Shown in pieces: positions 46,767-47,232 of a stretch of 64,000 nucleotides of DNA; positions within the stretch are counted from its first letter, which is position 1, and each line of letters starts with the position of its first letter. Location of the stretch: positions 244,528,001-244,592,000 of the forward strand of contig OZ024743.1 in NCBI GenBank assembly GCA_964016885.1. The letters run 5' to 3'. The translations under genes were made by a program, and so were the position numbers. This stretch comes from Eledone cirrhosa. Lineage: Eukaryota. The notes under the pieces were generated by a model. The model worked only from the letters and a program-made list of their open reading frames with translations, was not told the DNA's origin and ran no database searches.

Positions 46767-47232
46767 AATACGATATTAACAAATGGAAACTATATTTATA
46801 AAACCATATCTATTTTATTATACATATTTCAAGGACACCACGCTAAATTATGTTATGCATTCATCAGACAAAATACAATATAGATCAGTTTTATAAATAA
46901 ATATTGACATACCCCTAAAAACTGCAACCATTACTGTTGGAAGCTCCAGGATAGTCTATCCTGGAGCCTCCAACAGCAATGGTTGCACTCTCCAAGTGTA
47001 TGTCATTATTTATCTACAAAAGCGATCTATATTGTATCTTGTCCGACGAAAGCATACCACAATTCAACGCGGTGTCCCTGAAACATGTATAACAAACAAA
47101 TATGGCTTCACAAATACAGCTTCCACATGCTAATATCGCATGCCTACTCCAAACACCTGCTGAGTGCCCCACATCAGTTATAAAAACACTTGCCTGCTGC
47201 ATCCCAACAATCCAAACAGAACCCCCGCACAC
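46767..47232. mobile_element. Fold-back family-3 insertion; right arm is T-to-C hypermutated
   Basis: Left arm is close to the reverse complement of 47581-47770; right arm is colinear with 47585-47862. Confidence 0.85.

What the first reader, a model, noticed from the sequence alone, without database searches (positions are those of the whole stretch)
46956..47232. Genomic retroelement copy with an ADAR-type hyper-editing signature
Seen: hand alignment with the sibling at 47585-47862 gives about 49 T-to-C differences, no C-to-T and about 10 other differences in about 275 bp (for example gctttatatc to gccccacatc, aacttttgcat to aacccccgcac). Other copies (43771, 44612, 63563 and the adjacent left arm) have T, and the HHR core CUGAUGA becomes CCGACGA, so T is ancestral. 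All 11 TpC sites I counted are unchanged, which means minus-strand A's with a 5' G are spared. Established: ADARs avoid a 5' G, hyper-edit long duplexes and are very active in coleoid cephalopods. Unusual: the A-to-G strand is antisense to the ribozyme-sense RNA, and the inverted left arm (46767-46955) is essentially unedited. Inference: either an edited antisense RNA was reverse-transcribed, or the cDNA strand of the RNA:DNA hybrid was deaminated during retrotransposition, an APOBEC3-like defence by adenosine deamination that also disables the ribozyme.
Basis: partly seen in the sequence, partly recalled or inferred. Interest (0 to 1): 0.85.

Follow-up and report, generated by a model that had tools for sequence, protein, structure and literature searches.

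The report
RNA edits fixed in retrotransposon DNA
Copies of a jumping gene in this animal genome carry dense A-to-G changes on one strand, confined to hairpin arms, likely ADAR RNA edits that were reverse-transcribed into DNA; one edited hairpin is shared by dozens of scattered copies, so RNA editing here likely becomes heritable.

Summary
46956-47232 carries 48-49 T>C and 0-1 C>T against family copies. On the minus strand, A's with a 5' G are spared (0/11). Contigs of three runs of one sample hold the same letters. The element is a Penelope-like retrotransposon (Hydra-clade motifs).

Both inner inverted arms are therefore A>G on one genomic strand while the outer arms are nearly clean. This fits editing of an RNA hairpin, not of cDNA.

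Motif searches found seven more edited loci and a subfamily 'S' (38 junction hits; 29 of 30 fetched are edited, 1 is an unedited sister). In S the A>G changes lie on the ORF-coding strand and fill both stem arms, skip the loop, and form nested haplotypes that track unlinked variants, which points to repeated rounds. Edited copies are rare (41 vs 39,252 motif hits).

Best reading: ADAR hyper-edits read-through hairpin RNA, the element's RT writes it into germline DNA, and mobility survives. Not shown: the enzyme, the edited RNA itself, the source locus of the window insertion, any defence role.

The parts
46768..46954 (-). Outer arm D: pLTR segment, sense on the minus strand, ending at the family's internal 3' end (about position 197) in (TA)n; essentially unedited
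   Evidence: 3 A>G, 0 T>C; shares 3 private variants with arm A, two of which were searched together and occur only at this locus
46941..46966 (.). Fold-back junction between D and C, unique in the assembly; arm A begins with the same junction letters
   Evidence: 1 hit genome-wide
46956..47232 (+). Inner arm C: full pLTR plus tail, hyper-mutated T>C (A>G on the minus strand), about 43% of sites
47036..47099 (+). Hammerhead motif inside arm C; core at 47043-47049 changed at two U positions
   Evidence: sequence; local fold -5.0 vs -10.8 kcal/mol for the sibling; no Rfam hammerhead hit
47233..47520 (.). Spacer (predicted hairpin loop): TA/TG runs and an approximately 100-bp piece of another repeat, without T>C changes
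   Evidence: by-eye comparison with L064 and L065
47521..47580 (-). Inner arm B: last 60 nt of the element, sense on the minus strand, hyper-mutated A>G on the minus strand; predicted pairing partner of arm C, 5'-truncated
   Evidence: 12 A>G of 23 scored A, 0 other substitutions; C:B mismatches 20 G.U, 0 A.C, 0 other in 58 nt
47581..47862 (+). Outer arm A (the 'sibling'): pLTR plus tail with intact hammerhead core at 47672-47678; unedited
   Evidence: A:D differ at 4 of 187 positions

Best explanation
These are Penelope-like retrotransposon copies whose inverted arms carry A-to-G changes on one strand, likely made by ADAR on a double-stranded RNA hairpin and then likely copied into germline DNA by the element's reverse transcriptase. 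Shown: the changes, their strand, their neighbour bias, their confinement to paired arms, their polarity, and their sharing among dispersed copies. Inferred for the window: a read-through transcript of a source locus ran sense copy, spacer, antisense copy, junction, terminal sense copy. The first two copies paired and were hyper-edited, leaving the terminal copy single-stranded and clean. The RT primed in (TA)n at the internal start and copied D-C-spacer-B until it stopped; a second priming at the tail end gave arm A, and the two cDNAs were joined. Inferred for subfamily S: an edited terminal hairpin stayed mobile and gained further edits in later cycles.
For: Window: both inner arms A>G on the minus strand, outer arms clean. 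Same pattern at L101 (inner 35 G.U vs 4 A.C; outer 1 mismatch in 111), L063 (9 vs 0), L146 (40 vs 2), L147 (16+2 vs 0). Control: 19 fold-backs not chosen for editing differ at 42 of 3053 positions, of all types. S against its unedited sister L177 (same unique junction): A>G is 453 of 487 substitutions in the 5' arm and 412 of 423 in the 3' arm over 26 copies; 0 of 30 loop A's changed; 29 of 92 stem A's fixed, by 5' neighbour U 16/42, A 12/31, C 1/10, G 0/9. The edited strand of S is the strand that codes the upstream RT-endonuclease ORF. Polymorphic stem A>G 22/59 vs stem T>C 4/87 (p=7e-7) and vs upstream A>G 8/181 (p=2e-9). Edit haplotypes track upstream variants (Mantel r 0.70, 0 of 5000 permutations; 24 of 27 rows). 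A_deamin-domain genes at 4 places in G000. Literature: 5' G depletion is shared by metazoan ADARs and lizard Penelope RNA is massively edited (PMC5625713, passages); a PLE RT starts at two internal sites, extends both DNA strands and tolerates hammerhead mutants (PMC11167929, parts 1-2 of 4).
Against: The predicted unedited source locus of the window insertion was not found in five searches (candidates L064, L065, L109, L192-L194 rejected). The pairing partner for about 215 nt of arm C is absent and must be assumed lost by truncation. No edited RNA was observed and no enzyme was tested; PF02137 also covers ADAT1 (recalled). In the window and L101 the RNA strand cannot be fixed from layout alone. 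4 of the 22 polymorphic S edits have a 5' G. The first Mantel test, which included microsatellite and misaligned columns, was not significant (r 0.10, 1149 of 5000); the cleaned test was post hoc and rests on 7 informative sites. Several edit sites recur in different clades, so recombination or conversion contributes. The extra loci were found with motifs that force two edits each.
Confidence: 0.85

Rival explanations
1. Adenosines were deaminated on DNA (the cDNA strand of the RNA:DNA hybrid, or a folded cDNA) during retrotransposition, as an APOBEC3-like defence.
For: Arm C alone reads as A>G on the antisense strand. ADARs can edit DNA in model heteroduplexes at A-C mismatches (PMC12925331, passage). 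The window layout alone does not fix which strand was RNA.
Against: S is edited on the ORF-coding strand and only in the stem. Sense A>G occurs at arm B, L101, L103 and L146. Terminal arms, which must also be cDNA, are clean in the window, L101 and L147.
Confidence: 0.05
2. The window locus formed unedited, and an edited minus-strand transcript of it was later written back in place by RNA-templated repair or gene conversion.
For: No source locus was found, and the D/A variant pair and the junction occur only here.
Against: The conversion tract would have to match arms C and B exactly while the near-perfect A:D stem stayed clean, and most of B would have to be deleted afterwards. It cannot explain 38 dispersed S junction hits.
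Confidence: 0.06
3. RT misincorporation or ordinary mutation on structured templates produced the transitions.
For: RTs are error-prone (established knowledge).
Against: 49 T>C against 0-1 C>T, 43% of sites changed, 5' G avoidance, both arms on one strand; 29 parent copies differ from their majority at 0-3 positions each.
Confidence: 0.02
4. Assembly or base-calling artefact, or C/G is the ancestral state.
Against: Three runs give the same letters across the junction. 39,252 unedited motif hits. L177 is unedited with the S junction. Nested haplotypes across many contigs.
Confidence: 0.02

Closest known systems
A-to-G hypermutation in avian retroviruses (Rous-associated virus, avian leukosis virus)
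   Same: ADAR-type hyper-editing of a retroelement RNA carried through reverse transcription; nearly 50% of A's in an inverted repeat (PMC12925331 section 30; the primary papers were not read)
   Different: Exogenous retroviruses. Here a non-viral Penelope-like element, many natural genomic loci, and a lineage that kept multiplying.
APOBEC DNA editing of endogenous LTR retrotransposons (PMC4866542, passages)
   Same: Deaminase hypermutation fixed in genomic copies, clustered, context-biased, and inflating apparent age
   Different: G-to-A from C-to-U on cDNA, sense-strand biased, vertebrate LTR elements; reported absent from 19 invertebrate genomes. Here A-to-G, set by RNA pairing, either element polarity, target-primed element.
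ADAR hyper-editing of repeat transcripts, including lizard Penelope (PMC5625713, passages)
   Same: Inverted repeat substrates and 5' G depletion
   Different: Seen as RNA-versus-DNA mismatches; here the changes are in the genomic DNA itself.
Hydra-clade Penelope-like elements (PMC8557442, passages)
   Same: RT with C-terminal GIY-YIG-type endonuclease, RW and DKT motifs, CxCX5C linker, hammerhead, (TA)n targets, inverted 5'-truncated arms, tail
   Different: None of my search terms on that paper concerned editing. The tail here is about 90 nt rather than 30-40. S is a chimera of one family's ORF and another family's pLTR hairpin.
Retroprocessing of C-to-U edited RNA in plant organelles (recalled, no call)
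   Same: RNA edits become DNA through reverse transcription
   Different: Site-specific C-to-U in organellar genes, not hyper-editing of a nuclear mobile element.

Membership tests
Penelope-like element, Hydra clade | pLTR linked to an RT plus C-terminal GIY-YIG-type endonuclease ORF | tested here: met
   18 of 20 loci found with the family's upstream sequence hold the ORF (59-94% identity to the family-B ORF); 15 hold it upstream of a pLTR 91-96% like the window sibling. Atlas look-alikes include RVT_1 and GIY-YIG clusters, a lead only. Pfam gave no hit on these ORFs.
Penelope-like element, Hydra clade | RW(K) and DKT motifs, CxCX5C linker, no CCHH inside the GIY-YIG core, CxxC and CxH after it | tested here: met
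   Read by eye in the translations of family B and S against the text of PMC8557442; the RWK position reads RWR
Penelope-like element, Hydra clade | Partial tandem pLTRs, inverted 5'-truncated arm, tail, (TA)n target | tested here: met
   3.8-kb period in family B; fold-backs in 19 of 29 loci; two 3' ends in (TA)n
Penelope-like element, Hydra clade | Placement in the Hydra clade by RT phylogeny | not tested
   No reference PLE proteins were at hand
Hammerhead ribozyme (minimal type I) | Conserved core with stems I and II | tested here: inconclusive
   Core motifs and two stems are seen in the sibling fold; no Rfam hammerhead hit; cleavage not testable here
ADAR hyper-editing product | Clustered A>G with almost no other change | tested here: met
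ADAR hyper-editing product | 5' neighbour order U/A > C > G | tested here: met
   Arm C 0/11 for G; S fixed sites 0/9; 4 polymorphic S sites have a 5' G
ADAR hyper-editing product | Confined to double-stranded segments, both arms on one strand | tested here: met
   S paired 50/87 vs unpaired 2/56; window, L063, L101, L146. Part of arm C has no present edited partner.
ADAR hyper-editing product | Inosine in the RNA, dependent on ADAR | not testable with these tools
   Deaminase-domain genes are present; no RNA or enzyme data
APOBEC-type cDNA editing | Changes on first-strand cDNA, one polarity, independent of RNA pairing | tested here: not met
   Both polarities occur; stem only; coding strand in S

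The most novel reading that the evidence does not exclude
ADAR acts as a recurrent germline mutator in this genome. Penelope-like RNA hairpins are hyper-edited, written into DNA, stay mobile and are edited again in later cycles, so retroelement lineages carry a layered fossil record of germline RNA editing and an editing-born subfamily has spread.
Probability: 0.7. Interest if true: 0.85.

Novelty: new variant of a known kind. Interest (0 to 1): 0.78.

Why it matters
Whether A-to-I RNA editing ever feeds back into the inherited genome is usually argued without direct cases. Here it appears readable from DNA alone, with an unedited sister copy, internal unpaired controls and nested haplotypes. 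If it holds, four things follow. (1) ADAR joins APOBEC as a deaminase that diversifies endogenous retroelements, through RNA structure rather than cDNA. (2) Edited copies look old (about 80% identity) though they are young, which biases repeat dating. (3) They give germline ADAR neighbour preferences without RNA-seq. (4) The edits work as natural barcodes for Penelope-like insertion: fold-backs whose two arms share the same edits (L103, L105, L148) suggest both arms come from one template lineage, and S shows that mobility does not need an intact terminal hammerhead. A G.U-versus-A.C count on inverted repeats makes this testable in any assembly.

Tried and rejected
Source locus of the window insertion: five motif searches. 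L064 and L065 have the spacer junction without pLTR arms; L109 and L192-L194 are only relatives.

Motif hits judged not clearly edited and left out of the count: L061, L074, L098, L102, L107. L105 and L148 are kept as weaker cases.

A DNA search with the edited arm scored only 40 of 1097 candidates and found no second copy with the same pattern.

Rfam found no hammerhead. Pfam and PDB gave no useful hit for the PLE ORFs.

The first upstream tree and Mantel test were confounded by microsatellite and misaligned columns and were not significant.

No RNA holder listed. Run X5 gave no unique cover of the edited arm.

Earlier scan findings: nothing returned.

Literature: eight full-text searches listed no report of ADAR-type clusters fixed in genomic non-LTR or Penelope-like copies. 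Most subscription papers are outside that library and no supplements were read; supplementary note S4 of PMC4866542 on invertebrates may bear on novelty. PMC2873906 and bioRxiv 10.64898/2026.07.22.740005 were seen as passages only.

The survey of edited copies is incomplete: it rests on five motifs in two parts of the pLTR, so counts are lower bounds.

Full report
1. Observation. The arm at 46956-47232 differs from its sibling (47585-47862) by 48 T>C, 0 C>T, 10 other substitutions and one gap. Against a typical family copy with a 28-copy panel it has 49 T>C, and only 3 of those C's appear in any panel copy. Read on the minus strand, edited A's by 5' neighbour are U 19/36, A 24/41, C 5/22, G 0/11 (p=0.002 for G). 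The 3' G excess (8/11) is not significant. Contigs from three runs of one sample each cover 46926-47232 without a substitution, across the junction with the unedited arm. It is therefore not a polishing artefact, but no second individual was seen. The unedited form of a 29-nt motif occurs 39,252 times in G000, so T is the family state.

2. The element. The 280-nt unit is the 3' pLTR and tail of a Penelope-like element inserted in (TA)n. Of 20 loci found with its upstream sequence, 18 carry an RT plus C-terminal endonuclease ORF and 15 carry it upstream of the pLTR. The ORF of the closely related family B and the ORF carried by subfamily S show, by eye, the motifs that PMC8557442 gives for the Hydra clade. 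Copies end at two positions about 90 nt apart and often form fold-backs. Rfam did not call the hammerhead; the motif and two stems are visible in the sibling. The host is a 3.0-Gb genome with adenosine-deaminase-domain genes at four places; I did not determine the species.

3. The locus has four arms: D (46768-46954, inverted), C (the finding), a spacer, B (47521-47580, inverted) and A (47581-47862). B carries 12 A>G in element sense and no other substitution. C and B are thus both A>G on the minus strand, and their 58 paired positions show 20 G.U mismatches, 0 A.C and 0 others. A and D differ at 4 of 187 positions and share three private variants. Both arms of a stem changed on one strand is what editing of an RNA hairpin leaves.

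4. Other loci. Five motifs forcing two edits each gave, besides the window, seven loci with further unforced edits. L063, L101, L146 and L147 show a G.U excess between inverted arms (9:0, 35:4, 40:2, 18:0). L103, L105 and L148 are fold-backs whose two arms share the same changes; L105 and L148 are weaker. Five hit loci (L061, L074, L098, L102, L107) were not clearly edited and are not counted. L101 repeats the window's layout: edited tail-to-tail inner arms and clean outer arms. Nineteen fold-backs not chosen for editing show 42 mismatches of all types in 3053 nt.

5. Subfamily S. Thirty-five of the 41 hits share one pattern. S joins the ORF and 3' UTR of a different Hydra-type family (42-47% identity to family B) to a terminal hairpin of family-B pLTR. 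Of the first 30 of 679 family-B hits, not chosen for editing, 29 are unedited and one is S. The S junction has 38 hits; of 30 fetched, 29 are edited and L177 is an unedited sister with the same junction. Against L177, in 26 full hairpins (L162, L165 and L189 dropped as truncated), A>G makes up 453 of 487 and 412 of 423 substitutions in the two arms. None of 30 loop A's changed and none of 31 tail A's is fixed; 29 stem sites are fixed, none with a 5' G. The edited strand is the ORF-coding strand. Beyond the fixed sites, 22 of 59 remaining stem A's are polymorphic for G, against 4 of 87 stem T's for C and 8 of 181 upstream A's. Edit haplotypes follow upstream non-edit variants (r 0.70, 0 of 5000 permutations; 24 of 27 rows, 7 informative sites). 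A first test with microsatellite and misaligned columns was not significant, and the cleaning was post hoc. The S ORFs I looked at are truncated or split, so autonomy is not shown.

6. Mechanism. Shown: strand, context, stem confinement, polarity, and sharing among dispersed copies. Inferred: a read-through RNA with inverted pLTR copies folds and ADAR hyper-edits the stem. The Penelope-like RT, which in another PLE starts at two internal RNA sites and extends both nicked strands (PMC11167929), copies I as G into a (TA)n site. For the window, priming at the internal start would give D-C-spacer-B, truncated in B, and priming at the tail would give A; D and A stay clean because C had already paired with the upstream copy. 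The predicted source locus was not found, so this last part is a model, and in-place RNA-templated conversion stays possible for this one locus. Deamination of cDNA is ruled against by S and by sense-strand cases. A defence role is neither shown nor excluded: edited copies are about 0.1% of motif hits (a lower bound), yet S spread with a damaged terminal hammerhead.

7. Known and new. ADAR-type A>G carried through reverse transcription is reported for avian retroviruses, in an inverted repeat at nearly 50% of A's (PMC12925331 section 30). APOBEC G>A editing is fixed in vertebrate LTR elements and was reported absent from invertebrates (PMC4866542). Penelope RNA is a known ADAR target in lizard (PMC5625713). 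Eight searches of the held library listed no report of ADAR clusters fixed in genomic Penelope-like or non-LTR copies, or of an edited lineage that kept transposing. That library lacks most subscription papers and no supplements were read.

8. Verdict. Real and recurrent; a new variant of deaminase editing fixed in retroelement DNA. Confidence in RNA-hairpin editing followed by reverse transcription is 0.85; interest 0.78.

Noticed in passing
G000:C3:284528445 (L177) and 38 junction hits: Chimeric subfamily S: ORF of one Hydra-type family joined to an edited terminal hairpin of another family's pLTR; L177 is the unedited sister hairpin without the S upstream region.
   Followed up: yes
L103/L104 (C4:318.96 Mb), L105/L106 (C14:10.35 Mb), L148 (C28:115.05 Mb): Fold-backs whose two arms share the same edits (sense A>G in L103 and L105, sense T>C in L148), suggesting both arms derive from one edited template lineage.
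   Followed up: partly
window 53846-58320 (+): A different, young Penelope-like element: 1092-aa open frame at 54096-57371, a downstream GIY-YIG-like frame at 57239-57577, 340-bp direct repeats 99.4% alike (53846-54185, 57981-58320) and an inverted copy at 51952-52236. No Pfam hit.
   Followed up: partly
window 26889-28487, 49062-49969, 52475-53604, 58938-59400: Further truncated or inverted relatives of that Penelope-like element (68-99% alike).
   Followed up: no
window 3681-9131 (-): Two LINE-type RT fragments (RVT_1, zf-RVT), 91% alike over 1.7 kb.
   Followed up: no
window 47093: Run X3's contig has one extra A here, where arm C is one base shorter than the family; X1 and X2 match the window. 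May be a homopolymer error or an allele.
   Followed up: no
L157/L158 (G000:C6:13.64 Mb): An adenosine-deaminase (A_deamin) domain lying whole in one 700-aa open frame, unlike the exon-split matches on C1 and C25.
   Followed up: no
window 43771-43973, 44593-44753, 63556-63852: Older unedited copies of the same pLTR family, 83-90% alike.
   Followed up: yes
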